Positions 10,940 to 33,025 of a stretch of 59,976 bases of DNA are shown piece after piece. A program made the translations under genes and the position numbers. The DNA lies in IMG/VR virus record IMGVR_UViG_3300032116_000208, positions 1 through 59,976 of that record; one strand, written 5' to 3'. This stretch comes from a virus. Taxonomy: Duplodnaviria > Caudoviricetes. The notes below the pieces were generated by a model that worked only from the letters and a program-made list of their open reading frames with translations, did no database searches and had not been told where the DNA came from. How positions within the stretch are numbered: position 1 is the stretch's first letter; each line of letters opens with the position of its first letter.

Positions 10940-11128
10940 ATGGCTACCAAAGCAAAGTCCACAGTAAACGCTGCTGGCAACTACACCAAGCCCGAGCTGC
11001 GCAAGCGGATCGTGTCTCAGGTTAAAGCTGCTGCTACCCAAGGCACTGGTGCTGGCCAATGGTCAGCTCGCAAGGCACAGCTTGTAGCCAAGAAGTACAA
11101 GGCCGCTGGCGGGGGGTACAGAGATTGA
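10940..11128 (+). CDS. Small basic protein (WSARKAQ motif)
   Basis: NYTKPELRKRI..GQWSARKAQL..YKAAGGGY. Confidence 0.75.
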   Translation: MATKAKSTVNAAGNYTKPELRKRIVSQVKAAATQGTGAGQWSARKAQLVAKKYKAAGGGYRD

Positions 11129-11358
11129 AAGCCCCCCAAAAATCCCTCAAAGACTGGACCAGTCAGAATTGGAAGACTAAAAGTGGAAAACGATCATCTG
11201 ACACGGGCGAAAGGTATTTACCTGAGTCTGCAATCAAGAGTCTTAGCCCTGCTGAATACGCTGCGACAACGCGTGCAAAACGCGCTGGCAAAGCTGCGGG
11301 GAAACAGTTTGTAGCGCAACCCAAAAAGATCGCTGCAAAAACCGCAAAGTACCGTTAA
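11125..11358 (+). CDS. Small basic protein (DUF5872-like)
   Basis: TTGA overlap start; SLKDWTSQNWKTKSG..ERYLP..KQFV. Confidence 0.7.
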   Translation: MKAPQKSLKDWTSQNWKTKSGKRSSDTGERYLPESAIKSLSPAEYAATTRAKRAGKAAGKQFVAQPKKIAAKTAKYR

Positions 11359-11377
11359 CCCCAACTGGAGAATCCCC

Positions 11378-11527
11378 ATGATGAAAGCAAAGAAGCCGAA
11401 CCCGTTCGGCAAAGGCGAGTCCAAGATGATGGAAGCCAAAGAGAAGAAAATGGCTGGTGGCAAGAAAGCCTACGCTGCCATGGAAAAGAAGTACGAGGGT
11501 AAGAAGTCCACCTCGAAGATGAAATAA
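11378..11527 (+). CDS. 49-aa Lys/Met-rich protein
   Basis: GGAG RBS; MMKAKKPNPFGKGESKMMEAKEKK...; below the ORF-track cutoff. Confidence 0.7.
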   Translation: MMKAKKPNPFGKGESKMMEAKEKKMAGGKKAYAAMEKKYEGKKSTSKMK

Positions 11528-11538
11528 GGAGAACCACC

Positions 11539-11676
11539 ATGATGTACGGAAAAATGATGATGGCCAAGGCCCCCGCAAAAGGCGGTAAGAAAGCTGCCCC
11601 TTTCAAACCCTGCCCCGGCTGCAAGAGCCCTGCTAAGTGCAAGGCTGCTGGCAAGTGTTTGGCCAAGTCCAAGTGA
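11539..11676 (+). CDS. 45-aa Lys-rich protein with four Cys
   Basis: TAAGGAG RBS; FKPCPGCKSPAKCKAAGKC. Confidence 0.7.
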   Translation: MMYGKMMMAKAPAKGGKKAAPFKPCPGCKSPAKCKAAGKCLAKSK

Positions 11677-11679
11677 CGT

Positions 11680-11710
11680 AAAAAAACCCCCGGGCCTTTC
11701 GACTCGGGGG
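11680..11710 (-). terminator. Rho-independent terminator where the two arms converge
   Basis: CCCCCG-AGTC-GAAA-GGCC-CGGGGG followed by T7 on the - strand. Confidence 0.85.
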
Positions 11711-11751
11711 TTAAGGTTCCTCAACACAAAGGAGCTGACATGACAATCAGC
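11680..11751 (-). ncRNA. Putative 72-nt trans-acting antisense sRNA
   Basis: Own promoter, two small hairpins plus terminator, complementary to several SD/AUG regions (see findings). Confidence 0.65.
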
Positions 11752-11757
11752 GGGGCG

Positions 11758-11787
11758 ATCATACCTCGTTGGCTGCTGCATCGTCAA
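11758..11787 (-). promoter_or_regulatory. Sigma70 promoter TTGACG-N18-TATGAT for the sRNA
   Basis: -35 at 11787-11782, -10 at 11763-11758, inside the last codons of the primase gene. Confidence 0.7.
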
Positions 11788-14700
11788 ACTGGCTCGTCAC
11801 CAACGTCAACACTGGCGTGGCTGAGTCTGCGTTCAAGCGTCGTGTGTCCACGACAATGCAACGTGTCTGCTGCGACGTGCAGTCAGTACCACGCGTGATG
11901 ACAAACTTCTCACCCTGAGACACAAGCGCGTTGGCTTCCTTGATGCTGGCCACCATTGAATGGTAGTCCATGCGGTGAGCCATGCACCATTCCCGCACTT
12001 CCTTCTGAGACAAGATCAAGCGACCAGCTAGTTCTTTGCTGTTGGCCGTACCTAGGATGTAGCGCCCAGCGATAGGGCCATTGACTCTGTTGCGCGGGGT
12101 CTCAGGGCCACGTCCATCACGGCTGTCACGGCACTCGGTAGTGACAATAATTCGCTGGCTCAGCATGCTAATCATGCGCTGGAACGCATCTTCAGACGAC
12201 ACGGTGTTGTTCTCTTCAACCGAATCAGACAGCTCACGCAGCAGGTTCACGGTGAATTTGTACAGCTCACGGATATCAAACTCCACAATGCCCAGCTTCT
12301 TGGCGATCTTGGCAATCACGATGGTACATGCGCTGTGAGCCCGGTAGAAACGGAACTTGGGATTGGACAGCACCTCAGTGAACTTGCCCAGCATGGTCTG
12401 CATGTCGCGGTAGACCTCGGCTTCATTGGCCAGAATGTACTTGACCATGGCCGCACCAGCATGGCCAGAGTTGGCAGTCATCTTCTTGATGTTCTCGGCA
12501 GCTACCATGGCAGACGCTGACCTCCATGCATCCTCACCCTCTTCTGTGTCCGGGTACAAGCCTCGGTCTACCAGCATCAGCGGGTCGTAGCGGTCCACGT
12601 TGAGCTGAATCAGGCGCACGGCCTCGGCCTGTGAGTTGGCTTGGTTAGCCGCCAGCAACCCGTAGAAGTCACGGTTGCCAGTCACGTATACGTTCAGCCG
12701 CCACTCGGATGACTTGGCGAACACCACACCGCCGCCCTTGGATGTAAGGCGAACCTTCTCTTGGCCGTTGGATACGCCATAGGCTACGTCACTGAACACG
12801 CCAGCTTCCATGTTGGTCAGCTCATCAGCCAGCACAGGGATGTTGTTGTACACACCCAGCGTAGCCCACAGCGCGTTGGTGGTGAAGCCCTCCTTGGAGT
12901 TGAGCGTCATCTTCTCAGGGTTGCCGAACGCAGCCAGCGCGGCGTGACATGCGGTAGTCTTACCCCGGCCAGACTTGCCGCCTTGCAGGGCCAGAATCAA
13001 GCCCTTGTACAGGTCTTCGCAGTGGTGCGATACCAGTGAGCCCCAGCCAGCGCATACGGTGTATTGCCAGTGAACGGCCTCCGGTCTGTTGTACATAAAG
13101 TTCATGGCCTCGGCGTAGCCTTCCAAGCTGCCACGGCCATTCTTGAAAGCGTTGGCACGCTCCTTGGCGTTGCCACCCACCAGTACTTTGCGCTCTGTGC
13201 CGTCTTGGGCGAACAGCGTCTCACCGATAAGGAACGACTTGTGGTCATCCTTCCAGCCAAAGGCTGTCATGGTGTTGGTCTCAGTGATGCTGCGCTTTAA
13301 GGACTGCAGTTGGTCCAGCAAGTATGCCGCCATGTGCTCTCCAGCGTTTTTGTGGTTGCTCTTCGTGAGCTCGTATCGGGCCATAGCCCTCAGCAAATCC
13401 GTTGGTGATGCCACGGACTCACCTGAAATCTCAAAGTCACGGATGCGCTTGTCTGGTAGGTGCAGCCGGATGCCATAACGGAACGTGCCGTCTTCGCCAC
13501 GGATACGGGTGGTTGGGTAGAACAGGTTCTCACAGAACGGGAAAATCTGCATGACCCCTTCCTTGTCGGGGATGAGGCGGCTCAGCAGCCCAGCGTCCCA
13601 CTGGTATCCGCGAGGCAGCGCTGGTATGGTCGCTTGCTCTGCAACACCTTCCTCAGTAACAGTCTCAGCAGTAGTTTCTTCTGGCTCCGGCATCACCCGG
13701 CCCAGCACCAGCGGGGTCTTGACCTTGTCTTTGAACGAGCAGCCCGTGCAGCCGTCAGGGTTGCACTTGCTGAAGAACTCGCACGTCGTTGGTCCAGCAG
13801 TCCATGTGTCGTAGCGGATGTCCCAGTCAACTTGGCCATGGCCAGTTTCTTCGCGCTTGGAACTCCATGACTGAGCTAGCTCACGACCGTCAACGCAGTG
13901 GGTCAGCAGACCGATAACGCCGCGCCAAGTCTCGTAGTCCACGTCACCCATGGTGTCGCGCATCTTGCCAGCCTGCAGACACTTGTCAGCCATGACGTTG
14001 GCGTCTACCGGGACTTCAGGGTATTGGGTCAGGTGCGCCGTCAGGTCTGAGTTCAGGTCAGTCGGCTGATACTGTTTCTTGGGTGTCTCTTTGACAGGCT
14101 TGACGCCATTGGCTTTGGCGTAGTCAAACAGCGTTACAGCAAATTCTTTGGGGTCAATCGGCTCGCATGTAGCTATGACCTTGACCGTCTTAGCGTCGCC
14201 GTTCTTGCGGTTTGTAGAGCCCGCAGGGCGCAGGATAGAACTGAAGTCAGCCGTACGTGTAGGGTCAGCGATGACCTTGGCGTGGGCCAGCGTAGCCTTG
14301 AGGACTGTAGCCACCTTGCGCCACAGCTCATGGCCGATCTCATGGGTCAGGGGCCAGTAGGCATGGATGCCGTTGCCCGAATCCACCAGCATGGGGCGTG
14401 GGATACCGACGTCTTTGGCGAACTTGGCCATGGCCACACAAGCGTCTTTCTTGGTCAGGTAGCCCTGCCCCTTGTCGAACTTGTCTTGGCCGCAGTCAAC
14501 GTCCACCCAGAACGCCTTGGCCTTGTCCCAGTTCTCAGGTATTCGATACTTGCGCTTGGGGTTGCCTTTGATGTCGAGCTCTTCCAACTCGATCACGGCT
14601 TTTTGATACGTCGCACACGCATGGTACACAGACAGCTGCTTGCTATCAGCCATACCATCAATGGCTTCGGCCATTGTCTCAAGGTCAGTGTAGACCTTGT

Positions 14701-14791
14701 GTGCTGGGAATTTGTAGCCCTCTTTGAACAGGGCGAGGTAATGGATGCCGAACTCCGGCAGTATCGTCTTGAGAAACTCAAGGGTGTTCAT
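11759..14791 (-). CDS. DNA primase (AEP/RepB-like) - DUF927/helicase fusion
   Basis: WVDVD and VDSGNGIHAYW primase motifs, Cys cluster (TCEFFSKCNPDGCTGC), FGW motif, Walker A GKSGRGKTT, DE Walker B. Confidence 0.85.
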   Translation of the reverse strand: MNTLEFLKTILPEFGIHYLALFKEGYKFPAHKVYTDLETMAEAIDGMADSKQLSVYHACATYQKAVIELEELDIKGNPKRKYRIPENWDKAKAFWVDVDCGQDKFDKGQGYLTKKDACVAMAKFAKDVGIPRPMLVDSGNGIHAYWPLTHEIGHELWRKVATVLKATLAHAKVIADPTRTADFSSILRPAGSTNRKNGDAKTVKVIATCEPIDPKEFAVTLFDYAKANGVKPVKETPKKQYQPTDLNSDLTAHLTQYPEVPVDANVMADKCLQAGKMRDTMGDVDYETWRGVIGLLTHCVDGRELAQSWSSKREETGHGQVDWDIRYDTWTAGPTTCEFFSKCNPDGCTGCSFKDKVKTPLVLGRVMPEPEETTAETVTEEGVAEQATIPALPRGYQWDAGLLSRLIPDKEGVMQIFPFCENLFYPTTRIRGEDGTFRYGIRLHLPDKRIRDFEISGESVASPTDLLRAMARYELTKSNHKNAGEHMAAYLLDQLQSLKRSITETNTMTAFGWKDDHKSFLIGETLFAQDGTERKVLVGGNAKERANAFKNGRGSLEGYAEAMNFMYNRPEAVHWQYTVCAGWGSLVSHHCEDLYKGLILALQGGKSGRGKTTACHAALAAFGNPEKMTLNSKEGFTTNALWATLGVYNNIPVLADELTNMEAGVFSDVAYGVSNGQEKVRLTSKGGGVVFAKSSEWRLNVYVTGNRDFYGLLAANQANSQAEAVRLIQLNVDRYDPLMLVDRGLYPDTEEGEDAWRSASAMVAAENIKKMTANSGHAGAAMVKYILANEAEVYRDMQTMLGKFTEVLSNPKFRFYRAHSACTIVIAKIAKKLGIVEFDIRELYKFTVNLLRELSDSVEENNTVSSEDAFQRMISMLSQRIIVTTECRDSRDGRGPETPRNRVNGPIAGRYILGTANSKELAGRLILSQKEVREWCMAHRMDYHSMVASIKEANALVSQGEKFVITRGTDCTSQQTRCIVVDTRRLNADSATPVLTLVTSQFDDAAANEV

Positions 14792-14823
14792 GCTTCACCC
14801 CTTGTTGTATTTTTGCAACTCAT
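14788..14823 (-). CDS. 11-aa leader ORF coupled to the primase start
   Basis: GGAG RBS, MSCKNTTRGEA*, ATGA overlap with the primase ATG. Confidence 0.35.
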   Translation of the reverse strand: MSCKNTTRGEA

Positions 14824-14840
14824 GGCCACTCCAGAAAGCG

Positions 14841-14861
14841 AAAAAGCCCGCTGACGGGCTT
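14841..14861 (-). terminator. Terminator after the SSB-like gene
   Basis: AGCCCG-TCAG-CGGGCT-TTTT. Confidence 0.7.
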
Positions 14862-14909
14862 GGAAGAGTAGGGCCAGTGTACTTCAACGCCACTGACCCC
14901 ACAAGTTGC

Positions 14910-15836
14910 TTAGTCGTCGAAACTGATACCGTCGAGGTCGAGGTCCATGTCGTCGTCCACAGGCTTAGGAGCTGGCTTGGCAGCTGCCTTGGGCTTGGCC
15001 GCAGGCTTAGGCGCTTCTTCCTCAGCAGGCTCTTCCACTACAGGCTTGGCTTTAGCCTTGGGCGCTGGGGCTTCCTCTTCTGGCTCAGCAGGAGCTTCAG
15101 CAGCAATGGCAGCAGCCACGGACGAACCTAGGATGTTAGACACCACGTCAGACGCAGCGATCTCTTGGACTTCAGCAAAGCCGTCATCGTCCAGCAAACC
15201 AACAGCGGAGAATGTCAGCTTGGGGGATTCAGCTTGCAAGTCGAAGCCAACCTTGGTGACAACCATGTTGTAGCCAACACCGCGCTTGGCCAACATCTGA
15301 CCGTACTCGCCCAGTGCCTTAATGGACGCTGGAGGCACACGCAGCAGCATGGCGTCGTTGATCTGACCAGCAGGGGCCACGGCCATACGAACAGCGTCAG
15401 CGCAAGCCTTGCCCTTGGTAGCACCCTTCTCGGAGACACGCGAGCCCCACTGGTTGTGTGGGCAGGTAGCGCACTTCTTGGCCTGCTTGTTCTGAGCGTC
15501 AGCCGCTGGCTCAACACCATCGTTGGAGTAGCAGTCAGGCTTCTGGCCTTCGCTGGAGTCCTTGTCGTAGCCCTTGATGTAGAACACCTTGCTGGTGCCC
15601 TTGTTGGCTTTGAGCAACACCACGTTCAGGCTGGTAGCAGCGCTGTCCGGGTCTTTGGGGTTCATCTGGATTTCGCGCTCACCATCGCGGACGACTGCAA
15701 AGACTTTGCCCTTGATGGAGATGACAGGGAAGCCGCCACCTGCGTGGGCGGTCAGGTCGGAGTTGAGCGCAGCGACGTCAACTTTTTTGAGGAAGGCTGG
15801 CAGTTTGCTGCCGGAGTCGAATGGAATAATGTTCAT
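14910..15836 (-). CDS. ssDNA-binding/annealing-like protein
   Basis: PDCYS.DG..P and CxxCP.N.WGS..GKAC motifs; Ala/Pro linker; acidic tail ending DLDGISFDD. Confidence 0.65.
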   Translation of the reverse strand: MNIIPFDSGSKLPAFLKKVDVAALNSDLTAHAGGGFPVISIKGKVFAVVRDGEREIQMNPKDPDSAATSLNVVLLKANKGTSKVFYIKGYDKDSSEGQKPDCYSNDGVEPAADAQNKQAKKCATCPHNQWGSRVSEKGATKGKACADAVRMAVAPAGQINDAMLLRVPPASIKALGEYGQMLAKRGVGYNMVVTKVGFDLQAESPKLTFSAVGLLDDDGFAEVQEIAASDVVSNILGSSVAAAIAAEAPAEPEEEAPAPKAKAKPVVEEPAEEEAPKPAAKPKAAAKPAPKPVDDDMDLDLDGISFDD

Positions 15837-15863
15837 GGTTTTCTCTGTGATGGGAGGAGGAGT

Positions 15864-16250
15864 TTATGCCGAACGGCGGATGTTGACAACGCGCTCTGAG
15901 CGAATATTTATGCCCGGTGGTAACTCGTTGTCGTTGTTGTCGCGGAACTGCTCAATGGCGGTCTTTGCAGCCCGCACCTCAATCAAGCTCCACTCTTCGT
16001 TGGCCTTCACAAATTCCATGAAGGCTTCACGATCTGCCACGCTGGCGGTTGTACGCACAGCGGTGTAAGCCGTACCAAACTCAGTCTTCACTGAGTCCAT
16101 GCCGGTCTTGTTGAATACGTCCAACAGCTTGGCTTCGAGCTTTTCCATCTTGTCATTGATGGGGGCAACCGAGGCGTCGAAGTCGGACTTCATCTGCGCT
16201 TTCTTGTCACGTAGCTGTATGTACAGCGTGACGGCTTCTGATAATTTCAT
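15864..16250 (-). CDS. Conserved phage replication-module protein
   Basis: Coiled coil + SVKTEFGT..D..AF..F..PPG motif, between SNF2 and SSB-like genes. Confidence 0.7.
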   Translation of the reverse strand: MKLSEAVTLYIQLRDKKAQMKSDFDASVAPINDKMEKLEAKLLDVFNKTGMDSVKTEFGTAYTAVRTTASVADREAFMEFVKANEEWSLIEVRAAKTAIEQFRDNNDNELPPGINIRSERVVNIRRSA

Positions 16251-17818
16251 TGGTCTATCCGCTCTTTCATCATGTCGAGTAACACACCCTGCATAGACTG
16301 TTTGTCTTGCAGTCTCTTATACACACGCCGCTCAACATCCGTACCTGCAATGTGAACGATCACTGTGGTTCTTGTCTGGCCCGGTCGCCTTACGCGAGCA
16401 CAAGCCTGTTCGTAAGTCTCATTCGAGTGAACCGGGGCGTACCACACGATGGTGGTTGCTGCCGTCAGTGTCAGCCCATGGCTCATGGTCGATGCGTTAG
16501 CCACCAACACACGAGGGTCAAGGCCTCGTTGAAACTCACTAAAAATTCTGTCGCGCTCGGACTTGCTAGTCCCGCCATGCACCGTTTCTACCGCCCAGTC
16601 CTTACGCAGTTCTGACGCCACGCTTTCCAAGGCTCCGGTCAGTGGCACGAATACGATGACTTTGCCCTCAGACTCCTCAATGATTTCCTTGAGAACGTCC
16701 ATGCGAGGCTTGGATGGGATGACAACCTCTTCGCCACCTGTCCCGTACGCGACACCACATGCGATCTGGATTAACTTGTTGGCCTTGACAGCCTCGTTAA
16801 CCGCAAGAATCTGCCCACCGGAGTACTCGGTAGCCAGCTTGTTCATCATGTCCTTGTACGCCTTATCCTGCTCCTTGGTGAGGGCCACATCACGGGTGAT
16901 GAACGTCTGCTCGGGTAAGTCCACGCAGTCATCCAGCGAGAACCGGATAGCTGGCTGCATCATCTGATACACGGCGTCGTTGGCGTCCTGCCTAGGTGCC
17001 CACTTGAATGGTGTGATCTGCCGCATCACGCGGTCACGGAACGCACTGAAGTACTTGGGTACGCTGGAGTTATCAGGTGTCACCAGCTTGCATTGCGCCC
17101 ATGCGTCGGTAGGAGCGTTGGGAGTCGGAGACCCCGTCATGCCCCACACACGGCGTGTGGACTGCTTGTTGCAGATGGTGTTCAGAATCTTCCAGCGGTC
17201 AGTACCAGAGTTACGTGCCAACGCAAGTTCGTCTACAACGATCAGGTCAATGTCATCTCGCTTGGCCAGCTCGTCTTTGATGGTAGCCAGCCCGTCGATG
17301 TTGATGACGTAGACATGCACGTCTTGCTTGAGCAGCTTGTTGCGTCTGTCCCGTGAGCCATGCAGCACCACGCAGTCTAGGTGCGGGAACGTCTGGAACA
17401 CTGAGTCAGCCCACGTACGCTCCATGGTAGACAGTGGACATACAACGAGCATCTTCTTGACTGTCTTGGTACGACGCAGATAGTCGTACGCCCACAGTGC
17501 GCTGTTGGTCTTGCCAGTGCCCATGCCGTTGAGGCAGAACGCACGGCTGTTCATGGACAGAAATGAAGCCGTCTCCAGTTGAGCGGAGAACGGACTGTGC
17601 CTACCACTGACCTTGGGCCAGTCATAGTGCATGGGCATGGGGTCAGGAACCTCGAAGCCCAAGTTACGCAGCACCCGAGTTTCATCGGGTCTGTGTGGCA
17701 CTGCTACCAGTGTCGCGCCTTTGTGTTCGACCAACACTGAGGTTGGTATGACAGTCGTTACTCTTGTCGGGTTGCGAAGCTTGAGTACGACTGCTTTTTT
17801 GTCTTTGTGAATCAGCAT
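16247..17818 (-). CDS. SNF2-family helicase
   Basis: MGTGKT, VVCPLS, VVDE, MTGSP, HGLTLTAA, QACARVRRPGQ; likely start MLIHKDKK. Confidence 0.9.
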   Translation of the reverse strand: MLIHKDKKAVVLKLRNPTRVTTVIPTSVLVEHKGATLVAVPHRPDETRVLRNLGFEVPDPMPMHYDWPKVSGRHSPFSAQLETASFLSMNSRAFCLNGMGTGKTNSALWAYDYLRRTKTVKKMLVVCPLSTMERTWADSVFQTFPHLDCVVLHGSRDRRNKLLKQDVHVYVINIDGLATIKDELAKRDDIDLIVVDELALARNSGTDRWKILNTICNKQSTRRVWGMTGSPTPNAPTDAWAQCKLVTPDNSSVPKYFSAFRDRVMRQITPFKWAPRQDANDAVYQMMQPAIRFSLDDCVDLPEQTFITRDVALTKEQDKAYKDMMNKLATEYSGGQILAVNEAVKANKLIQIACGVAYGTGGEEVVIPSKPRMDVLKEIIEESEGKVIVFVPLTGALESVASELRKDWAVETVHGGTSKSERDRIFSEFQRGLDPRVLVANASTMSHGLTLTAATTIVWYAPVHSNETYEQACARVRRPGQTRTTVIVHIAGTDVERRVYKRLQDKQSMQGVLLDMMKERIDQ

Positions 17819-18048
17819 TGGTTGAGTGAGTCGTTCAGGAGAATCGCTTCGTCTGTAACGTGATCCCCCCATGTTTGAAGCCAGTATTTCTCCTGCAATT
17901 CCAACTCGCGTTGGGTGTGATGGCACACACGCTCGTACTTTAGAGCTAGCTGCCGTGCTCGCGCCGTTGTCACCCCGAGAACTTTTCCTGCTTTCTCGTA
18001 AGTAAGGCCCTGCGTGTGCTTTAGATTCCATGCAAGGCAGTACCGCAT
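17812..18048 (-). CDS. Small sigma4-like HTH protein
   Basis: GLTYEKAGKVLGVTTARARQL. Confidence 0.6.
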   Translation of the reverse strand: MRYCLAWNLKHTQGLTYEKAGKVLGVTTARARQLALKYERVCHHTQRELELQEKYWLQTWGDHVTDEAILLNDSLNQC

Positions 18049-18061
18049 GGCTGAGTAGTCC

Positions 18062-18328
18062 TCACTTGTCTGGGTTGTATGAGCCACTGCCTTTCCTCCA
18101 TCCACGGTTGGTTGTTCGGTCTTGCACAGCTACGTTGCCCTTGTGGTTGCCGCCGCCGTTCTCCAGTGACTTCTTGTGCGCAACGTCTTTACCATCGCCT
18201 ACCTTGGCCTTGCCATCTTTGATAGCTTCGCGCCGTGCAGCGTTGTTCTTCACACGCTTGGCCACTTCTTCAGGGCGAGCGTTGTATTCCTTCTGGTACT
18301 TAAGTTTTTGGGGTGTCGACTTGGTCAT
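18062..18328 (-). CDS. Small HNH-like protein
   Basis: GDGKDVAHKK...GN..V....NR. Confidence 0.65.
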   Translation of the reverse strand: MTKSTPQKLKYQKEYNARPEEVAKRVKNNAARREAIKDGKAKVGDGKDVAHKKSLENGGGNHKGNVAVQDRTTNRGWRKGSGSYNPDK

Positions 18329-19248
18329 GCTAGTACTCCTTCTACGATGTAAGCCTTACGTTGTTTGAGTTCGCCAGTCCCACGAATGAACGGGCTCCAC
18401 CAGTACACTCCGCTGCTTCGCCGCTTGAAATGTCCGCGCACAAGGTGAGCTTCTACGTCAGCGCGTTGGCTAGTAGTTCCTTTGCAGACAGTTTCTACTG
18501 CGGATAGGGAGACTACAGTGTACTCAGTGCTAGCCAGTATCTTCTTACGCCGACCAAGCATGGTACCTACACCTTGCCTTGGGCCAACTTTTGTTCTGGC
18601 AATACCTGACTTGCAGTTAATGACTGACTCCCAAATAAACATCAACGGGCTAACTTCTTCAAGAACCTCTTGCTTAAGTTTAGGAGTCATGCGTAGCAAA
18701 CCTTGCACAAACTGATTGGTATTCGACGTCGCGGTATTTGCCTGACTAAGAATGTGGCTGCTGATTGCATACGCCATGGGGCTCGGGGAAAAAGCACATT
18801 GCGTGGTTGCAGTTTGTTGGTCTGTGAATATATTAGCCATAAATGCGCCGCCACCTAAAGTGCCGTTATCAAACTCCCAAAATGGCCAAAACTCAAACGC
18901 AGGCTGACCGCTAATAGCAGTACGTCTAATTCGCGCTGCGACTCTGCGAATACTCAGCTTGTTCTCACCTTCAACAGCGTTTCGTAAAGTAGCGATCTCT
19001 GGGGTAATAGGCATTTCTACGACCAACGAGTCGTATGGCATGTGCAGCTCTTGCGCCTCGACTAACTCCCCAGCTTTCTTTTTGGATAGCTTTTGTATTT
19101 CCAGTGCCGTTTTGGGGGACATGACGAATATGGCGTCTACTTTAAATTCACTCGCCGGTATACGCAACGTTTCTATCTTTTCAGTGCTCATGGCAACAGC
19201 AGCCAAAGGCGAAAAGCCCTTGTCATCAGTTGTGAACGCTCTAGTCAT
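18325..19248 (-). CDS. Hypothetical protein with C-terminal H.VRGH.R motif
   Basis: 307 aa; HLVRGHFKRR..WWSPFIRG; overlaps both neighbours by 4 nt. Confidence 0.75.
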   Translation of the reverse strand: MTRAFTTDDKGFSPLAAVAMSTEKIETLRIPASEFKVDAIFVMSPKTALEIQKLSKKKAGELVEAQELHMPYDSLVVEMPITPEIATLRNAVEGENKLSIRRVAARIRRTAISGQPAFEFWPFWEFDNGTLGGGAFMANIFTDQQTATTQCAFSPSPMAYAISSHILSQANTATSNTNQFVQGLLRMTPKLKQEVLEEVSPLMFIWESVINCKSGIARTKVGPRQGVGTMLGRRKKILASTEYTVVSLSAVETVCKGTTSQRADVEAHLVRGHFKRRSSGVYWWSPFIRGTGELKQRKAYIVEGVLA

Positions 19249-19565
19249 TTTTTAGGCTCCAATTTTGAATAAACGTCGATCACGTCGAACAACATCGGCA
19301 TGTCATCAGGATTGTCCACTACCCAAGCAAATCCGTCAGCATTTCTGATAGCGTCAATTACTCTTTCTTGGTTTGACGTAATGTTCTTTTTCTTGCCGGG
19401 GGCCTTGGTCTCAAGGGCTATGAACAGCCCACGGTAGCAGCAGATGATGTCGGGGATGCCGACCTGTCCCATGCCGTTGGATACAGGCATGAAGTACCAT
19501 GCGCCACGCTCTTTGAGAAACTTCTTGCAAGCGTCTTTGACCTTGCCTTCTGGTGTACTAGCCAT
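19245..19565 (-). CDS. VRR-NUC nuclease / junction resolvase
   Basis: PEGKVK..GIPDII..LETKAPG..Q. Confidence 0.9.
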   Translation of the reverse strand: MASTPEGKVKDACKKFLKERGAWYFMPVSNGMGQVGIPDIICCYRGLFIALETKAPGKKKNITSNQERVIDAIRNADGFAWVVDNPDDMPMLFDVIDVYSKLEPKK

Positions 19566-20214
19566 TCTTCCTCCCGTTGAATTCGCAGCTCAATACTGAG
19601 CACCACGCCTTACACAACCCTGACGTTTTGGCTGGCCATTTGTCACGCTCGTATGCAGATTCCAGCTTGGCCACACGGGGCACGAACCCCTGCCAGATGA
19701 TGGGCACTTCCTTGCGCTCCACAGGCTTCCAGTCGATCTTCTTTTCCTTGAGCCAGATGAAACCCGTAGTGACCTTCTGTACTTCAGGGTGATGGGCAAA
19801 CACGTAGTTGGCGTACAGGTCTAGCTGCTCGGTGGGTTTGCGCTTGCCAGTCTTGTAGTCCGCGACCACAGCGTTCTTGCCATGGATGACAACCAAGTCA
19901 GCGATGCCGCGAGTCCATGAGCCTTTCCATTCGGTGGGCTGGAAGTTACGGTCAAGGGCGTATTCCTCCTCACACAGCTTCTGGCCCGGTAGTGCGGCCA
20001 GCTTGAACGCCAGCTTCTGCCACTGAGTCATGCCTTCTGGCAGCATGACACCGTCCTTGATGAAGTCTTCAAAGGCAGTGTGTACCTTTGTGCCCCACTC
20101 TGTGTGTATCGTAGGCGGCTCAACCACGTCTCGTTTGACCTTGAGGTGGTAGAACTTACGCGGGCAGGTCTCGAACGTATCCAATTGCGAGTACGTCCAT
20201 GCTGGGTTTGTCAT
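19558..20214 (-). CDS. PD-(D/E)XK Cas4/RecB-like exonuclease
   Basis: CPRKF, GTKVH, GIADL, DYKTGK, QL.LYA, C..WC....C. Confidence 0.9.
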   Translation of the reverse strand: MTNPAWTYSQLDTFETCPRKFYHLKVKRDVVEPPTIHTEWGTKVHTAFEDFIKDGVMLPEGMTQWQKLAFKLAALPGQKLCEEEYALDRNFQPTEWKGSWTRGIADLVVIHGKNAVVADYKTGKRKPTEQLDLYANYVFAHHPEVQKVTTGFIWLKEKKIDWKPVERKEVPIIWQGFVPRVAKLESAYERDKWPAKTSGLCKAWCSVLSCEFNGRKNG

Positions 20215-20280
20215 GTCATTCCAATGCGGTGACGCCCCAATACGTCATTTGACGGTTGGGGCTTTGTGTTCTGAAGCTCT

Positions 20281-20308
20281 ATGGTAGCAGCATGGTGAGT
20301 GGTGTCAA
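20281..20308 (-). promoter_or_regulatory. Sigma70 promoter TTGACA-N16-TACCAT (extended -10)
   Basis: -35 at 20308-20303, TGc-TACCAT ending at 20281, intergenic. Confidence 0.7.
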
Positions 20309-20311
20309 CGA

Positions 20312-22267
20312 TTATTTCACTTCGCCGTAGGTGTCACCTAAGTCACCCTCAGACCATGTGATTAGCTCTGGCCACCACGACACACCGCTACGCATAATGC
20401 CCTGCAATTCGTCAAGAACGTCTTGCGCCACAGTCTCTGGAACGATGTAAACCAACTCGTCATGCACCGCCAGTGACGGACGGAACTTCGTGCGCTGGAA
20501 CATACGCTGGGCATGCTCGGCGATCACGTCACGGGCAAGGGCTTGCACCAGATTCTCAACGCCTTTTCCGGCATAGATACGGGCTCGTGCGCGGCCACTG
20601 CCGTACCACCATTCGGTCTTGCCGTTGTCGGACTCTTTGGTCAGGCCGGGGTAGTAAATCTTGCGCCCGGACGGTAGGCGCACAGCATGTTTTTCTGTAA
20701 CGCACAGACCCCACGGGTCAATGGCTACCTCTGTACCTTGCTGGATGTTAGGCAGGCTGTTCTGGAACGCCTTCCAGCCCTTAACGATGTCATGGTATGT
20801 GTCACGCCATGCAGTCACCACCTCAAGCGACTCAGCCTCTGACAACTCCAGACCGCCCATCAGCTTGGCCACCTTGCGGAACGTAGGCGCACCAGCACCG
20901 AAGCCCAGACCCAACTGAGCGATCTTGGCCAGCTGTCGCTGGTCTTTGGACACGTCGCTCTCGTCGATGCCGTAGCGTGCAGCAGCAAACGATTTGTACA
21001 GGTCAGCCTCAACGTCGGACGCATACAAGTCCATGGACTGCTTGACCTTCCACAGGAAGTGGTTGACCCGCAACTCGATGCCGGACAAGTCAGCTACGAC
21101 AACCTTGTGCCCCTTGGGTGCTCGCAGTGAGTTACGCAGCGCATCAGAGGGCTTGGGCACCTTGGGGTTGATACGTGGCAGGTTCTGCATGTTGTACTGC
21201 TCACCAGACCAGCGGCCAGTGGTGTCAGCGCCAGCGTACTTGAGTGGCACGGGAATACGCCCGTCGCATGCGTCAGCGGCCTTGATGAACGCTTGCAGCC
21301 TTGTCTCCAGCAGGGTTGACTTAACCTCTAGGCGCACACGGGCAGCAGCAGCGATGATCGGGTCTTCGTGGTCTTGCAGTGCGATGAACGCATCGTCAGT
21401 CTTGGCCAGTGCCGGTGTCATCTTGGCCGGGTTGGTGGGCGACTGCTTCATGGGTACATCCACGCCACGGGACTTAAGCAGGTCACCAAACTTGGCAGCG
21501 CTTGCCATGGTCATGCGTACATACTCTTCGGGGTCGGTGGGGTCGCCTTCCAGCTTACGGGCCACTGATTCAGCTTGCGTAAACAGCAAGTCGTACAAGT
21601 CGTTGAGTGACTTGGCCTTCTCAGCCTTCACATCTTCCAGCGCCTTGTTCACCAGCTTGTAGTCGAGCTGGAACTTAGGCTCCACAAGCATGCGTGTAGT
21701 CATGTCGATGTGCAGCAACTCTGCCTTGGGAAATCCCTTGGCCAGCTTCTTGAACAACTCAGCGCACAGGTCAGTGTCCACCTTGTTGTACTCTTCCATG
21801 TCAGCCAGCTCATCAGGGGTGAAGTCGCACAGGTGCTTGCCCTTGGTGTTAGTGGCTTCTAGGTCTAGCTTCGCACCGACCTTCAACTCAGCGGCCAGCT
21901 TCTTGAGCGACACGCCGATGAGGAACTTGCCACCAACGGACGTGCCTGTCTTGGAATACTTGGACCGCGCCATGGCAGCAGTGCAGCCGTACATCTTGGG
22001 CTTGATGTTGAATCTCCATGCAAGGATCATGGAGTCGAAGCCGGACATGTTGTGGCCAACGACGATCTTGTCGTCCCAATCCATGTCTTGCAGGTGCTCA
22101 CGGATTACCTCCTCACCAAACAGTACGTATGTAGGCTCGTCGCCAACACGTATAGCCACAGAGATGATCTCGGTCTCAGGGTGTGTGATGTACTCGGTCG
22201 GAGACATACGACTCAGCGTGTGGGTCGTGCTCCAGTAGGATTCAAAGTCAATGTAGACGGGTGTCAT
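20312..22267 (-). CDS. polA: Family A DNA polymerase with 3'-5' exonuclease domain
   Basis: IDFES, GHN..FD, Y..D exonuclease motifs; TTGRWSG, DLSGIELRV, RQLAKIAQLGLGFG, VHDE. Confidence 0.95.
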   Translation of the reverse strand: MTPVYIDFESYWSTTHTLSRMSPTEYITHPETEIISVAIRVGDEPTYVLFGEEVIREHLQDMDWDDKIVVGHNMSGFDSMILAWRFNIKPKMYGCTAAMARSKYSKTGTSVGGKFLIGVSLKKLAAELKVGAKLDLEATNTKGKHLCDFTPDELADMEEYNKVDTDLCAELFKKLAKGFPKAELLHIDMTTRMLVEPKFQLDYKLVNKALEDVKAEKAKSLNDLYDLLFTQAESVARKLEGDPTDPEEYVRMTMASAAKFGDLLKSRGVDVPMKQSPTNPAKMTPALAKTDDAFIALQDHEDPIIAAAARVRLEVKSTLLETRLQAFIKAADACDGRIPVPLKYAGADTTGRWSGEQYNMQNLPRINPKVPKPSDALRNSLRAPKGHKVVVADLSGIELRVNHFLWKVKQSMDLYASDVEADLYKSFAAARYGIDESDVSKDQRQLAKIAQLGLGFGAGAPTFRKVAKLMGGLELSEAESLEVVTAWRDTYHDIVKGWKAFQNSLPNIQQGTEVAIDPWGLCVTEKHAVRLPSGRKIYYPGLTKESDNGKTEWWYGSGRARARIYAGKGVENLVQALARDVIAEHAQRMFQRTKFRPSLAVHDELVYIVPETVAQDVLDELQGIMRSGVSWWPELITWSEGDLGDTYGEVK

Positions 22268-22698
22268 CAGTACATGCCCTCAAGGTTAGGTGGTGCATAG
22301 TCCGGGCCTTTGGCAATCTTGCCGCTGTCGTTGAAGATGGGATAGCCGTTCTTGTCGAACTTGCTGTAGTTGCTGCGGTTCACGGCAGTCACAGCCTCGG
22401 CTGTCTTCATGCCAGCACAATGGCCTACGCCCACAGATGTAACGATCTGGTCAGCCAGCGAGTCAAGGAACTCTTTGCGGTCAGTGATGTACGCACTAGC
22501 ACTGCCGTTCTTTAGATTGTCAGCCAGCCAGCTCAAAGCTGTACGCGCCCGTACCAAAGCGTCAGCGTGTGTTGTGTTGATGACCGACAGCATCTCTACG
22601 ATCTCCTCTAAGTGACAGCCAAGCTGCACGTTGAAGTTCTCTTCGTTGGGGTTAGGTCTGGCACGTTTGTGCCACAGTTCAATTTGATCTACGCTCAT
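22267..22698 (-). CDS. MazG-like nucleotide pyrophosphohydrolase
   Basis: EEIVE, D.LAD, V.RSN.SK, GKIAKGPDY..P. Confidence 0.85.
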   Translation of the reverse strand: MSVDQIELWHKRARPNPNEENFNVQLGCHLEEIVEMLSVINTTHADALVRARTALSWLADNLKNGSASAYITDRKEFLDSLADQIVTSVGVGHCAGMKTAEAVTAVNRSNYSKFDKNGYPIFNDSGKIAKGPDYAPPNLEGMY

Positions 22699-22970
22699 TA
22701 CTGCTCCAATGCGTTTATTGCCATGATCCGGGCGATGACGTCCGGGATTTTCTCGTCGTCCTTGACGATGTAGAGGTGGTGCTGCCAGTCAGGGCCGCGC
22801 TGCTGCGGCTTGTATTGTGATGCCTTAACGATGTAGCCGTTGGTGGCTTTGATGATGGAAAAACTCAGCATAGTATCTTCCTCGGATACTCTGTTTGCTT
22901 TAACCACGTCCGTCGCGAGCGCTACGTCATTTGACATGAGCCAGTTACGCAGCCATTGTTTGATACTCAT
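22698..22970 (-). CDS. Hypothetical protein (NGY motif, paralog 1)
   Basis: IIKATNGYIV; GGAG RBS; ends LEQ. Confidence 0.75.
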   Translation of the reverse strand: MSIKQWLRNWLMSNDVALATDVVKANRVSEEDTMLSFSIIKATNGYIVKASQYKPQQRGPDWQHHLYIVKDDEKIPDVIARIMAINALEQ

Positions 22971-23296
22971 TACTGCTCCAGTTGGAATGCGACCATCGCT
23001 GCTGCAATGATCTCGTTGACTTCGGTGATTGTCTGCGCGATGTGCGTCGTGTACTCGTAGCCTTCCTTGGTGCCGATGTTGACTACGTAGCCGTTGGACA
23101 CCTGCTGCACTTCAATGTTGCCGCTGAAGATTTTCTTGCTACGTGTTTGCCTAATTTGGGATTGATAGCCCTGTATGGCACCCTGTAACCCAGAACTGGT
23201 CAAGGTACTGGCATTCACTGCGTTAATGTTGATAGCGCCCTGCGCTGCGTTATGCAACGGGCTACCAGTGATGGTGTGCATTAAGTTTCTGAACAT
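22970..23296 (-). CDS. Hypothetical protein (NGY motif, paralog 2)
   Basis: VQQVSNGYVV; ends LEQ. Confidence 0.75.
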   Translation of the reverse strand: MFRNLMHTITGSPLHNAAQGAININAVNASTLTSSGLQGAIQGYQSQIRQTRSKKIFSGNIEVQQVSNGYVVNIGTKEGYEYTTHIAQTITEVNEIIAAAMVAFQLEQ

Positions 23297-23589
23297 GTGC
23301 GTGTCTCCAGTTCGATTAGTAGTTCGATGTAGTGCTTGGCTTTCTCCAAGTCTTTGATGCCATGCTTGGCTCTCCAGCGCGATACGTACTTGATGACGTT
23401 GCCCTCCATGTAGCCAATGTTGTTGGCATGGATGTACTCCACAGGTTGAATGGCTAAGTCCTTGTAGTGGTTGCCAGCTACTTGCACGTCTAGGGCGCTC
23501 GTGCCGTTCAAGCCTGCGCGTAACATATCCTGCATAACTTCCTCCTCTTGGTTGGTCCAGTCAATTCCTAGGTTGTCGTTCTGGTTCAT
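23281..23589 (-). CDS. DUF3310 (SaV-like) protein
   Basis: QVAGNHYK..IQPVEYI..GNVIKYVSR..DLEKAKHY. Confidence 0.9.
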   Translation of the reverse strand: MNQNDNLGIDWTNQEEEVMQDMLRAGLNGTSALDVQVAGNHYKDLAIQPVEYIHANNIGYMEGNVIKYVSRWRAKHGIKDLEKAKHYIELLIELETRTCSET

Positions 23590-23792
23590 TCGTCTCTCCT
23601 AAAAGTTGGTAGGGGACACCAGTGTGTCCAGCCGTCTGAGTCTCGCCATGAGCCAAGCACTGCAACGCCCAAGCGTTTGTCGATCATCAGCATCTTCACG
23701 CTCTTTGGTGGTGGATACTCTTTGGCATCCAGCCACTTGTTGTTCACGTCCACCACAGCGAACTGGTCGTGGGTGAGCTTGATGTTGGTCAT
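23586..23792 (-). CDS. DUF551-like small protein
   Basis: W....PP...THWCPLP. Confidence 0.65.
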   Translation of the reverse strand: MTNIKLTHDQFAVVDVNNKWLDAKEYPPPKSVKMLMIDKRLGVAVLGSWRDSDGWTHWCPLPTFRRDE

Positions 23793-24756: not shown

Positions 24757-24875
24757 TGTGGTTTCTCCTCGTCATCAAACGCCATGTCTGGGTGCGGCAC
24801 GTTGTCATGCACCACCACACCATCAACGGCCTCGATGTACCGCCCACAGATAACGCAGTAATAGCCGTCATCCAT
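24753..24875 (-). CDS. 40-aa CxxC protein
   Basis: MDDGYYCVICGRYIE..VVVHDNVPH; GGAG RBS; fills the gap exactly. Confidence 0.65.
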   Translation of the reverse strand: MDDGYYCVICGRYIEAVDGVVVHDNVPHPDMAFDDEEKPQ

Positions 24876-26072: not shown

Positions 26073-26073
26073 A

Positions 26074-28419: not shown

Positions 28420-28472
28420 GGTTTATCCTTGTGTGTTGAAGTTGTTACCAATGCTTCTGCGAGCATTTGGTG

Positions 28473-32916: not shown

Positions 32917-33025
32917 GATTTTCCTTGTGTGTTGAGGATGTGTGCGTCTGGATGCCTGCCCCCATGCGTGACGCATGAACGATGGGGTAGCCTGAATACT
33001 GTATCTATGTAAGCTGTCGTGGTGC

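What the first reader, a model, noticed from the sequence alone, without database searches (positions are those of the whole stretch)
11680..11787. Candidate multi-target anti-SD/anti-AUG small RNA with its own promoter and terminator
Seen: on the - strand, TTGACG(11787-82)-N18-TATGAT(11763-58) sits in the last primase codons. It predicts +1 near G11751 and a 72-nt RNA GCUGAUUGUCAUGUCAGCUCCUUUGUGUUGAGGAACCUUAA followed by a GAAA-loop terminator and U7. It folds into GCUGA/UCAGC (loop UUGUCAUG, anti-AUG) and UCCU/AGGA (loop UUGUGUUG). The core is the reverse complement of a translation start (CAACACAAAGGAGCUGACAUGACAA) and matches distant starts of - strand genes: Cas4-like nuclease (11/11 at 20208-20218 plus 9/9 at 20262-20270); DUF3150-like gene (31364-31390, 10+5+4+3 nt); gene 28649 (11 nt with one GU, +5); gene 26072 (12 nt with one GU, 26070-26081); MoxR ATPase (5+11 nt, 32922-32938); gene 28419 (5+8); gene 35218 (9 nt plus SD); weaker at 24150 and 27506. 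Established: phage antisense RNAs such as P1 c4, P4 CI and P22 sar act on a few targets, often by loop-initiated pairing. Inference: one sRNA silences translation across the early/nuclease programme, for example at the early-to-late switch or in a carrier state of this integrase-less phage.
Basis: partly seen in the sequence, partly recalled or inferred. Interest (0 to 1): 0.92.

Follow-up and report, generated by a model that had tools for sequence, protein, structure and literature searches.

The report
Conserved phage small RNA behind primase
A short regulatory RNA gene sits at the very end of the primase gene of an uncultured freshwater phage and seems to turn down at least two of the phage's own early genes by pairing with the places where ribosomes start.

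Summary
In detail: on the - strand TTGACG-N18-TATGAT (11787-11758, holding the primase stop codon), a 72-nt RNA (11751-11680) with a 5' hairpin, CUCCU and a U7 terminator. It is not chance. The element follows the primase gene in all 32 relatives whose primase 3' end I read (primase identity 43-97%), and a model of it found 7 more. Hairpin 1 keeps pairing through compensatory changes, and its G-U pairs name the primase-sense strand. The two promoter hexamers are near-invariant while the codons between them drift. The opposite-strand SD-ATG heads no conserved ORF. Rfam has no family for it.

The multi-target claim is only partly supported. In this genome alone the pairing is no better than that of reverse complements of other start regions, with no early-versus-late bias. 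Across phages, two partners co-evolve with the RNA: the start region of the PD-(D/E)XK exonuclease gene (20201-20218, with the hairpin loop) and the leader of an ATPase gene (32923-32938, with the central CUCCUUUGUGUUGAGGA). Cognate pairs beat non-cognate ones; a primase-start control does not. Best reading: a DapZ-type sRNA with an ORF-embedded promoter that represses translation of two or three phage operons. No transcript data exist.

The parts
11782..11787 (-). -35 hexamer TTGACG, inside the last primase codons
   Evidence: TTGACG or a 4-6 of 6 variant at the same spacing in 33 of 38 elements. Majority fraction 0.96 against 0.69 in the spacer; wobble positions 0.97 against 0.51.
11758..11763 (-). 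-10 hexamer TATGAT, containing the primase stop codon TGA (11759-11761)
   Evidence: All 6 columns invariant in 31 rows. Distant relatives carry TACTAT, TAGTAT or CATAAT at the same distance from the hairpin.
11752..11757 (-). 6-nt discriminator, variable in sequence, constant in length; predicted +1 = G11751
   Evidence: columns 7-12 of A2; majority fraction 0.61; +1 G invariant in 31 rows. The start site itself is inferred, not observed.
11680..11751 (-). predicted 72-nt small RNA
   Evidence: Fold z = -4.7. Covariance model R1 scores 88.8 bits here and finds no second copy in the window. Rfam best 20.6 and 19.2 bits against gathering scores of 50 and 49.5.
11734..11751 (-). hairpin 1 (nt 1-18); loop UUGUCAUG holds the conserved G-Y-C-A-U ('anti-AUG') = seed module 1
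   Evidence: 5 pairs, 98% of cells paired in 30 distinct sequences, 3 of 5 pairs with compensatory changes, closing pair GC 17 / GU 12. Loop nt 7-12 unpaired in the ensemble.
11717..11734 (-). central module CUCCUUUGUGUUGAGGAA (nt 18-35): anti-SD plus anti-leader = seed module 2; forms weak hairpin 2 in this phage
   Evidence: CUCCU/UUCCU followed by GUG is kept in all aligned relatives. Hairpin 2 is not in the consensus structure.
11680..11712 (-). Rho-independent terminator (stem 11712-11685, GAAA loop) and U7; shared with the primase mRNA and, read the other way, placed behind the convergent 45-aa ORF
   Evidence: Helix 2 is 92.7% paired in 30 sequences.
11759..14791 (-). primase/helicase gene (1010 aa, DUF927) whose 3' end carries the promoter
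20201..20218 (-). partner 1: start region of the PD-(D/E)XK exonuclease gene (19558-20214): UGACAUGACAA (-4..+7) pairs with sRNA nt 6-16, CAGC (+11..+14) with nt 1-4
   Evidence: best of 82 start regions, -41.9. Ranks 1, 1, 4, 3, 4, 1 in six genomes. Co-variation, cognate test. Pfam PF12705 E 1.5e-14, PHROG exonuclease.
20281..20308 (-). promoter TTGACA-N16-TACCAT of the exonuclease operon
   Evidence: 10 of 12, TG before the -10; conserved in relatives.
32923..32938 (-). partner 2: leader of the ATPase gene (31918-32916): UCCUCAACACA-C-AAGG (-22..-7, includes the SD) pairs with sRNA nt 20-34
   Evidence: 2nd of 82, -37.3. Ranks 7, 2, 2, 1, 2, 2. Multi-position co-variation including an indel, cognate test. 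PHROG ATPase 2.7e-65.
28420..28441 (-). possible partner 3: leader UUCAACACACAAGGAUAAACC of gene 27748-28419 (no family hit)
   Evidence: Ranks 2, 3, 3, 2, 1 in five relatives but 17 in the window. Cognate advantage weak (-2.5; 26 of 720 permutations). Only 5 related loci found.

Best explanation
This is a real small-RNA gene of the 3'-end type. Host RNA polymerase would start at a sigma-70-type promoter built into the last codons and the stop codon of the primase gene. It would make a ~72-nt RNA that ends at the primase terminator. The RNA carries two seed modules. The loop of hairpin 1 (UUGUCAUG), with the neighbouring arm bases, pairs across the start codon of the PD-(D/E)XK exonuclease gene, the first gene behind the promoter at 20281-20308. 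The central CUCCUUUGUGUUGAGGA pairs with the leader and SD of the ATPase gene at 32916, and perhaps with the leader of gene 28419. In other lineages it pairs with other start regions. Because the duplexes cover the SD and/or AUG of otherwise open start regions, the expected effect is a block of 30S binding, that is, translational repression, possibly followed by mRNA decay. Shown by comparison: conservation, RNA strand, structure, promoter constraint and co-evolution with two partners. Inferred: transcription, the +1 site, the direction of regulation, timing and any chaperone.
For: 1) The element follows the primase stop in all 23 loci that include that end (3 of 26 lacked it) and in all 9 further primase loci. 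Model R1 found it in 7 of 10 more contigs.
2) Hairpin 1: 0 broken pairs in 24 sequences. In 30 distinct sequences 98% of cells pair, 3 of 5 pairs show compensatory changes, and the covariation score is 0.347 against 0.203 +/- 0.018 in shuffles (0 of 500) and at most 0.10 when slid. G-U pairs (12 of 30 at the closing pair) would be A.C on the other strand.
3) Promoter: at least 9 of 12 matches at the fixed place in 33 of 38 elements, against 0.08% of 20000 random places. Wobble positions in the hexamers are 0.97-1.00 conserved against 0.51-0.52 around them.
4) The opposite-strand ORF is 7-74 aa long in 24 phages, so it is not coding.
5) Partner 1: over 32 sRNA/exonuclease pairs the loop Y and the first base of codon 2 are U-A in 14, C-G in 13, C.A in 2, and 3 have no CAU. 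GCUG/CAGC becomes GCCG/CGGC through synonymous changes in one clade.
6) Partner 2: UGUGUUGAGGA/UCCUCAACACA becomes GUUGAAGA/UCUUCAAC, GGUUGAUGA/UCAUCAAUC and GUGGUUGAAAAG/CUUUUCAACCAC (12 of 12) in other lineages.
7) Cognate versus non-cognate duplex energy: exonuclease -30.1 vs -26.4 (n=31, 0 of 10000 permutations; lineage representatives n=15, 13 of 10000). ATPase leader -27.8 vs -22.9 (n=21, 0 of 10000; representatives n=11, 3 of 10000). Primase-start control -19.9 vs -19.9 (n=28, 4818 of 10000).
8) In six genomes these two are the best-ranked of 39 comparable start regions.
9) In relative G001 the centre of the RNA pairs 17 contiguous bp with the start region of the Gam-like gene.
10) The exonuclease start region is unstructured in the centroid fold.
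Against: There is no transcript evidence: only metatranscriptome contigs of relatives, without ends or strand. In the window alone the pairing is not better than that of reverse complements of other start regions (4 of 82, 2 of 82, 7 of 82), and there is no early/late bias. Both seeds are partly closed in hairpins. After opening costs the core duplexes net only about -3.4 and -8.6 kcal/mol. The single-position co-variation rests on 3 changes on a primase tree; the sign test cannot reach significance (p 0.5), and L105 and L106 mismatch. In L014 a different small ORF follows that leader. Three divergent relatives have no CAU in the loop (L104, L107, L110), two weak model hits lack hairpin 1 (L173, L174), and R1 found nothing in 3 of 10 contigs. 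Gene starts came from a crude caller of my own, and RNAduplex ignores intramolecular structure. Sequences are related, so permutation counts overstate independence.
Confidence: 0.62

Rival explanations
1. It is only the 3' untranslated end of the primase mRNA: a stabilising hairpin plus terminator with no transcript of its own. Any pairing with upstream start regions is made by the long mRNA or by a processed fragment. This would be OppZ-like feedback if the exonuclease gene is on the same transcript.
For: The element shares strand and terminator with the primase gene. The exonuclease gene lies upstream on the same strand, 8.4 kb away, behind the only other 10-of-12 promoter match in 11500-31000. 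3'-end sRNAs cut from operon mRNAs that repress their own operon are described (PMC7398697; search listing and start of abstract only).
Against: The two hexamers are conserved far beyond the coding constraint, at a fixed 6-nt distance from the hairpin. In the distant relatives the -10-like hexamer lies after the stop codon, where no coding constraint exists. A terminator-like hairpin at 14861-14844 lies between the upstream genes and the primase gene. The two modes are not exclusive.
Confidence: 0.12
2. It is a general anti-ribosome-binding-site RNA: CUCCU plus CAU at SD-AUG spacing lets it bind most start regions of the early programme, or of the host, and damp translation globally.
For: The reverse complement is a near-ideal start region. 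10 of 82 start regions reach -30 kcal/mol, against 0.67 on average for shuffles and 3.1 for shuffles that keep CAUG and CUCCU. Partner sets differ between lineages. Weak likeness to the CUCCUCC-bearing betaproteobacterial toxic sRNA RF02278.
Against: Reverse complements of ordinary start regions do as well (7 of 82 have as many strong partners), and there is no early-late difference. Most start regions show no cognate advantage: 27 of 32 genes lie between -2.3 and +2.7. The primase control shows none. Co-evolution at positions outside the SD and AUG argues for specific partners.
Confidence: 0.1
3. The functional thing is on the + strand or at DNA level. It could be a start-region cassette (SD-ATG) for a short + strand ORF, or an inverted copy of the early leader cassette kept similar by recombination, without RNA-RNA regulation.
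For: AAAGGAG-N5-ATG is kept on the + strand in nearly all relatives. The reverse complement of the exonuclease leader matches model R1 weakly over its whole length (20192-20269, 11.4 bits, E 2.2). 15 identical bases are shared with the Gam-like start cassette in G001.
Against: The + strand ORF is 7-74 aa long without conserved sequence. G-U pairs in hairpin 1 and G.U intermediates in the sRNA-leader duplexes fit RNA pairing on the - strand, not sequence identity. Promoter and terminator face the - strand direction. In L023, L024, L105 and L106 the next gene is on the same strand as the primase gene, so no convergent + strand operon feeds this start.
Confidence: 0.06
4. It is a replication element: a short primer or origin transcript next to the primase gene.
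For: Position directly behind the primase/helicase gene and a strong constitutive-type promoter.
Against: A strong terminator follows after 72 nt. I saw no AT-rich tract or iterons in 11500-12000 by reading. The conserved loop and centre co-vary with translation start regions elsewhere.
Confidence: 0.03

Closest known systems
sRNAs from mRNA 3' ends with an ORF-embedded promoter (Salmonella DapZ; also MicX, MicL, ArgX)
   Same: [quoted passage not shown] The sRNA shares the mRNA's Rho-independent terminator and acts in trans through short seeds on translation start regions. [quoted passage not shown]
   Different: This one is phage-encoded and its predicted partners are the phage's own operons. 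It has two separate seed modules, one in a hairpin loop. There is no sequence or Rfam relation. Hfq dependence is unknown.
P1/P7 c4 antisense RNA (immunity; ant/icd operon)
   Same: A phage RNA that blocks translation of a phage gene by pairing of loop sequences with the ribosome-binding region (PMC12197685, passage read). Two-site recognition is as I recall it.
   Different: As I recall, c4 is processed from the same transcript as its target and serves lysogenic immunity of a temperate phage. No Rfam match to a c4 family appeared at E up to 10.
OppZ / CarZ autoregulatory 3'UTR sRNAs of Vibrio cholerae (PMC7398697)
   Same: An RNA at the 3' end of a gene cluster that pairs with the start region of an upstream gene on the same strand: a negative feedback design.
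   Different: As I recall, OppZ is cut out by RNase E and acts on its own operon's mRNA. Here an own promoter is conserved, co-transcription with the exonuclease gene is unproven, and a second partner (the ATPase leader) lies outside any such operon. I saw only the listing and the start of the abstract.
Rfam RF02278 (Betaproteobacteria toxic sRNA) and RF02837 (Burkholderia anti-hemB)
   Same: Small RNAs of similar length with a C/U-rich anti-SD-like stretch before a terminator. They are the two best Rfam matches at these coordinates and on this strand. A Limnohabitans (Betaproteobacteria) genome carries a relative of the primase N-domain.
   Different: Scores of 20.6 and 19.2 bits against gathering scores of 50 and 49.5. 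The alignments rest mainly on the terminator. Not a member.
Phage lambda PreS and other trans-acting phage/prophage sRNAs (DicF, Esr41, AsxR)
   Same: Phage-encoded, trans-acting, base-pairing RNAs (PMC12197685 passages; bioRxiv 10.1101/2024.10.31.621285, listing and start of abstract only).
   Different: Those described there act mainly on host mRNAs or host sRNAs. Here the supported partners are phage genes. Host targets could not be examined.

Membership tests
Rfam RF02278 Betaproteobacteria toxic sRNA | Score at or above the family's gathering score (50 bits) | tested here: not met
   20.6 bits, E 0.043-0.26; first hairpin of the model not matched.
Rfam RF02837 anti-hemB | Score at or above the gathering score (49.5 bits) | tested here: not met
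   19.2 bits.
3'-end sRNA with ORF-embedded promoter (DapZ type) | Conserved promoter inside or at the end of the upstream coding sequence | tested here: met
   At least 9 of 12 matches in 33 of 38 elements against 0.08% background; wobble positions of the hexamers 0.97-1.00 conserved against 0.51-0.52. Comparative evidence only; no transcript seen.
3'-end sRNA with ORF-embedded promoter (DapZ type) | Shares the Rho-independent terminator of the parental mRNA | tested here: met
   One terminator, 11712-11680, 47 nt behind the primase stop.
3'-end sRNA with ORF-embedded promoter (DapZ type) | Primary transcript with a 5' triphosphate that accumulates independently of the mRNA | not testable with these tools
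   Only contigs of RNA libraries were on hand.
3'-end sRNA with ORF-embedded promoter (DapZ type) | Trans regulation of mRNAs through a conserved seed | tested here: inconclusive
   Co-evolution with two start regions and a clean control support pairing. Regulation itself is untested.
3'-end sRNA with ORF-embedded promoter (DapZ type) | Hfq (or other chaperone) binding | not testable with these tools
   Host not known. The U7 tail behind a GC-rich stem fits an Hfq 3' module only by recalled rule.
P1 c4-type immunity RNA | Processed out of the transcript that also carries its target; part of a lysogenic immunity region | tested here: not met
   Own conserved promoter. Partners lie at 20.2 and 32.9 kb in other units. 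The feature list is recalled.
OppZ/CarZ-type autoregulatory 3'UTR sRNA | Target gene lies on the same transcript as the sRNA, and the sRNA is released by RNase E | not testable with these tools
   Same strand and order (exonuclease ... primase-sRNA), but a terminator-like hairpin lies at 14861-14844. No RNA ends are available.

The most novel reading that the evidence does not exclude
An uncultured, apparently virulent freshwater phage lineage runs a small post-transcriptional regulon of its own. One promoter-in-a-stop-codon sRNA with two seeds (a loop 'anti-AUG' and a linear 'anti-leader/anti-SD') shuts down the first genes of its recombination/replication operon and of its ATPase operon. The regulon is rewired between lineages by matched seed and leader changes; for example, the Gam-like gene is captured with 17 bp in one clade. 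The RNA may have arisen as an inverted copy of the exonuclease leader. That would be the first covariation-supported self-targeting sRNA regulon read straight from viral metagenomes.
Probability: 0.4. Interest if true: 0.72.

Novelty: new member of a known kind. Interest (0 to 1): 0.6.

Why it matters
Known phage small RNAs are few. Most come from temperate coliphages and act on host genes or on one neighbouring phage gene. Here a small-RNA gene, its promoter, its structure and two of its partners can be argued from sequence comparison alone, in a widespread group of freshwater phages with no cultured member: about 40 contigs, and the closest cultured phage primase is 24.6% identical. If confirmed, it shows three things. 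Lytic-type phages use trans-acting sRNAs to time or dose their own replication and recombination genes. Promoters can be written into a stop codon. And natural seed/target variants, such as U-A versus C-G at the start codon, give ready-made compensatory-mutation tests. It also adds a family that Rfam lacks.

Tried and rejected
Rfam: only sub-threshold hits; no membership claimed.

Exact 37-nt search of viral contigs: 0 hits. Relatives were then reached through the primase protein.

+ strand 52-aa ORF (11740-11898): rejected as a gene. Its length is 7-74 aa in 24 phages.

Gapless motif counts in the window were not informative. TCAACACAAAGGAG with up to 3 mismatches: 13 found, 6.75 expected. 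AACACAAAG with up to 1 mismatch: 11 found, 19.4 expected. TCAACACA: 8 found, 4 expected.

Single-genome target statistics beat shuffles but not reverse complements of other start regions. I therefore did not accept the multi-target claim on that basis.

Second exonuclease-leader site (AACACAAAG / CUUUGUGUU): kept in some relatives and lost in the L010/L017-type leader GAACAAAAAG. Not counted as support.

Gene 28419 leader: good ranks in relatives, weak cognate signal, only 5 loci. Left as 'possible'.

Start regions -16250 and +47080 showed cognate advantages in the six-genome test. For -16250 this comes from a 17-bp match in G001/G002 only. For +47080 the energies are low and the pairings inconsistent.

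RNA libraries: 18 runs hold small shares (0.05-0.15) of the sampled words of 11500-20400. I laid four of them (X1, X2, X3, X6), all kept as contigs, at 88% likeness or more. Contigs of relatives cover much of 11000-21000. One X1 contig (852 nt) bridges 11000-11773 across the convergent junction. One X3 contig has adapter-like letters next to 11712. None of this shows strand, ends or a discrete small RNA, and DNA carry-over cannot be excluded, so I draw no conclusion on expression or habitat.

Host: one genome-contig hit, Limnohabitans sp. Hippo3 (primase N-domain 71-72% over residues 1-371 in an 881-aa frame). R1 finds no convincing sRNA in that genome (best E 0.144 elsewhere). This is a lead on the host lineage only.

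A 6-codon ORF inside the sRNA (AUG at nt 11) was seen by eye. It has no SD and its stop is not kept in relatives (sequences). Not pursued.

Literature: two searches ran. Neither was aimed at this unnamed phage group, so 'not described' rests only on these and on Rfam. Supplementary files were not opened.
Full report
WHAT IS THERE. The window is a complete 59,976-bp viral record. Genes run + to 11676, - from 36.7 kb down to 11759, then + again. The - block ends with a 1010-aa primase/helicase (DUF927). Its stop codon TGA (11761-11759) lies inside TATGAT (11763-11758), and TTGACG sits 18 nt upstream. Then come 6 nt, a 6-bp hairpin (11751-11734), CUCCUUUGUGUUGAGGAA, and a GAAA-loop terminator with U7 ending at 11680. 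A 45-aa Lys/Cys-rich + strand ORF (11539-11676) converges on the same terminator. The 72-nt RNA folds at -32.3 kcal/mol, z = -4.7. Every coordinate in the finding checks out.

IS IT CONSERVED? The primase protein retrieved 26 viral contigs. Of these, 23 include the 3' end of the gene, and all 23 carry the same arrangement, down to 43% primase identity. Nine more primase loci reached through other genes carry it too. A covariance model built from 31 copies found it in 7 of 10 further contigs and only once in the window (88.8 bits). Rfam offers nothing above threshold; the best hits are 20.6 and 19.2 bits against gathering scores of about 50.

WHICH STRAND, AND IS IT RNA? Hairpin 1 has no broken pair in 24 sequences. 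In 30 distinct sequences 98% of cells pair, and 3 of 5 pairs change on both sides (UA/CG, GC/AU, AU/GC). The covariation score is 0.347 against 0.203 in shuffles (0 of 500) and at most 0.10 when the partner is slid. The closing pair is G-C in 17 and G-U in 12 sequences. On the + strand those 12 would be A.C mismatches, so the structured RNA is the primase-sense one. The perfect SD-N5-ATG on the + strand starts ORFs of 7 to 74 aa with no common sequence, so it is not a gene.

DOES IT HAVE ITS OWN PROMOTER? I scored 38 elements. L019, a near-duplicate of L012, and L104, missed by my pattern, were left out. Of the 38, 33 have at least 9 of 12 consensus matches at the fixed place and 26 have at least 10. 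Only 0.08% and 0.01% of 20,000 random places in the same loci reach these scores. I then took the 31 rows that share the TATGAT frame; dropped were the seven with another -10 hexamer, plus L019 and L104. In these the -10 is invariant, the -35 is 0.96 conserved, the 18-nt spacer 0.69, the upstream codons 0.67 and the 6-nt discriminator 0.61. Third-codon positions are 0.97-1.00 conserved inside the hexamers and 0.51-0.52 outside. In the most distant group the -10-like hexamer (TACTAT, TAGTAT, CATAAT) lies behind the stop codon at the same distance from the hairpin. This is selection on a promoter, not on the protein. The start at G11751 is inferred from geometry.

WHAT DOES IT PAIR WITH? In the window I scored nt 1-41 with RNAduplex against 82 start regions (-40..+20), taken from a crude gene caller of my own. 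The best was the PD-(D/E)XK exonuclease gene (-41.9), then the ATPase gene at 32916 (-37.3), then 31921, +45299 and 31369. Plain shuffles never reach these values (0 of 200). Shuffles that keep CAUG and CUCCU rarely do (2 of 200 for the best energy, 0 of 200 for the top five). But reverse complements of other start regions do about as well (4 of 82, 2 of 82, 7 of 82), and early genes are not favoured over late ones. On one genome the RNA therefore behaves like 'the antisense of a very typical start region'.

THE COMPARATIVE TEST CHANGES THE PICTURE FOR TWO PARTNERS. In six complete genomes the exonuclease start ranks 1, 1, 4, 3, 4, 1 and the ATPase leader 7, 2, 2, 1, 2, 2 among the comparable start regions. 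Gene 28419 ranks 2, 3, 3, 2, 1 in relatives but 17 here. The DUF3150-like start does not hold up.

For the exonuclease gene I have 32 sRNA/target pairs from the same contigs. The loop base before CAU and the first base of codon 2 are U-A in 14, C-G in 13 and C.A in 2 (L105, L106); three loops have no CAU. In one clade the arm GCUG becomes GCCG while codons 4-5 change synonymously from CCA GCA to CCG GCU. L013 is an exception.

For the ATPase leader the centre of the RNA and the leader change together at several positions: UGUGUUGAGGA/UCCUCAACACA here, G.U intermediates in G003 and G004, GUUGAAGA/UCUUCAAC in L015, GGUUGAUGA/UCAUCAAUC in L013, and GUGGUUGAAAAG/CUUUUCAACCAC (12 of 12, with a matched one-base insertion) in the L169-L172 clade.

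Cognate pairs are more stable than non-cognate ones. Exonuclease: -30.1 vs -26.4, n=31, 0 of 10,000 permutations; with one representative per sRNA lineage, n=15, 13 of 10,000. ATPase leader: -27.8 vs -22.9, n=21, 0 of 10,000; representatives n=11, 3 of 10,000. The primase start region, taken from the same contigs, shows nothing: -19.9 vs -19.9, 4818 of 10,000. In the six-genome test 27 of 32 genes lie between -2.3 and +2.7.

Limits. On a tree of the primase C-terminus (29 rows) the loop base changes only three times, each time with its partner. That is too few for a sign test (p 0.5). Permutations also treat related phages as independent.

HOW IT MOST LIKELY WORKS. The exonuclease gene is the first gene behind the only other strong promoter match of the region (TTGACA-N16-TACCAT). 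Its leader has a stable hairpin and an open start region. The RNA's loop and arm cover -4..+7 and +11..+14. On the ATPase leader the RNA's centre covers -22..-7, including the SD. Duplexes of this kind exclude the 30S subunit, so repression is the expected outcome (inference).

In the free RNA only the two loops are unpaired. Opening costs are 7.9 and 8.7 kcal/mol for the RNA and about 3.3 for each target. This leaves roughly -3.4 and -8.6 kcal/mol for the core helices. That suggests loop-initiated pairing and perhaps a chaperone. Because the RNA is also the 3' end of the primase mRNA, the long transcript could carry the same seeds. An OppZ-like feedback on the exonuclease gene is not excluded.

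COMPARISON. By architecture it matches the ORF-embedded-promoter class of 3'-end sRNAs. [quoted passage not shown] By logic it recalls P1 c4, which uses loop pairing at a ribosome-binding region (PMC12197685, passage read), and OppZ/CarZ (PMC7398697, listing only). It is a member of none by sequence.

Context: PHROG and Pfam name the partners as an exonuclease and an ATPase. The nearest cultured phage primase is 24.6% identical. A Limnohabitans genome holds a relative of the primase N-domain.

VERDICT. Two partners are supported, a third is possible, and global early-gene silencing is not supported. It is a new family of a known kind of regulator, still without any transcript or functional data.

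Noticed in passing
window 11539-11676 (+): A 45-aa Lys/Cys-rich ORF (MMYGKMMMAKAPAKGGKK...CPGCK...) with a strong SD converges on the sRNA terminator. Its antisense sequence is recognisable behind the terminator in most close relatives, so it seems conserved. Function unknown.
   Followed up: partly
window 20231-20257 (-) and 32965-32993 (-): Both sRNA-partner leaders carry a similar 5' hairpin (CCCCAACCGUCAAAUGACGUAUUGGGG; CCCCAUCGUUCAUGCGUCACGCAUGGGGG). In relatives the exonuclease-leader hairpin keeps pairing with changed arms, for example UCCUUAG...CUUUAGGA. It could be a 5' stabiliser or a protein-binding site.
   Followed up: no
window 20192-20269 (+): The reverse complement of the exonuclease leader is the third-best hit of the sRNA model over its full length (11.4 bits, E 2.2). 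This hints that the sRNA gene arose as an inverted copy of that leader.
   Followed up: no
G001 (contig of L015), start region of the homologue of window gene 15864-16250: UUAACCACAAAGGAACC upstream of the Gam/gp157-like gene pairs 17 contiguous bp with that phage's sRNA centre. G002 has the same with one G.U. The window's own homologue lacks it. Partner sets seem to differ between lineages.
   Followed up: partly
L053 (contig of L014): Behind the exonuclease-type promoter and leader, this relative has an extra small ORF (ATGACAACTCAAATTGCAG...). The exonuclease gene follows with a different start region.
   Followed up: no
window 14844-14861 (-): A terminator-like hairpin AAGCCCGTCAGCGGGCTT plus a T-rich tail lies 53 nt upstream of the primase start. 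The primase gene may therefore be a separate transcription unit, or this may be an attenuator.
   Followed up: no
L183/L185 (Limnohabitans sp. Hippo3, contig C1 458168-459280): A bacterial genome encodes an 881-aa frame whose first ~370 residues are 71-72% identical to the phage primase N-domain. It may be an integrated element and gives a lead to the host lineage. No sRNA copy was found there.
   Followed up: partly
window 28420-28441, 32917-32938, 35219-35240 (-): Three first-in-operon leaders share UCAACACA(CA)AGGA(A/U)A before the ATG. This A/C-rich stretch upstream of the SD may act as a translational enhancer, and it is the part that the sRNA centre mirrors.
   Followed up: partly
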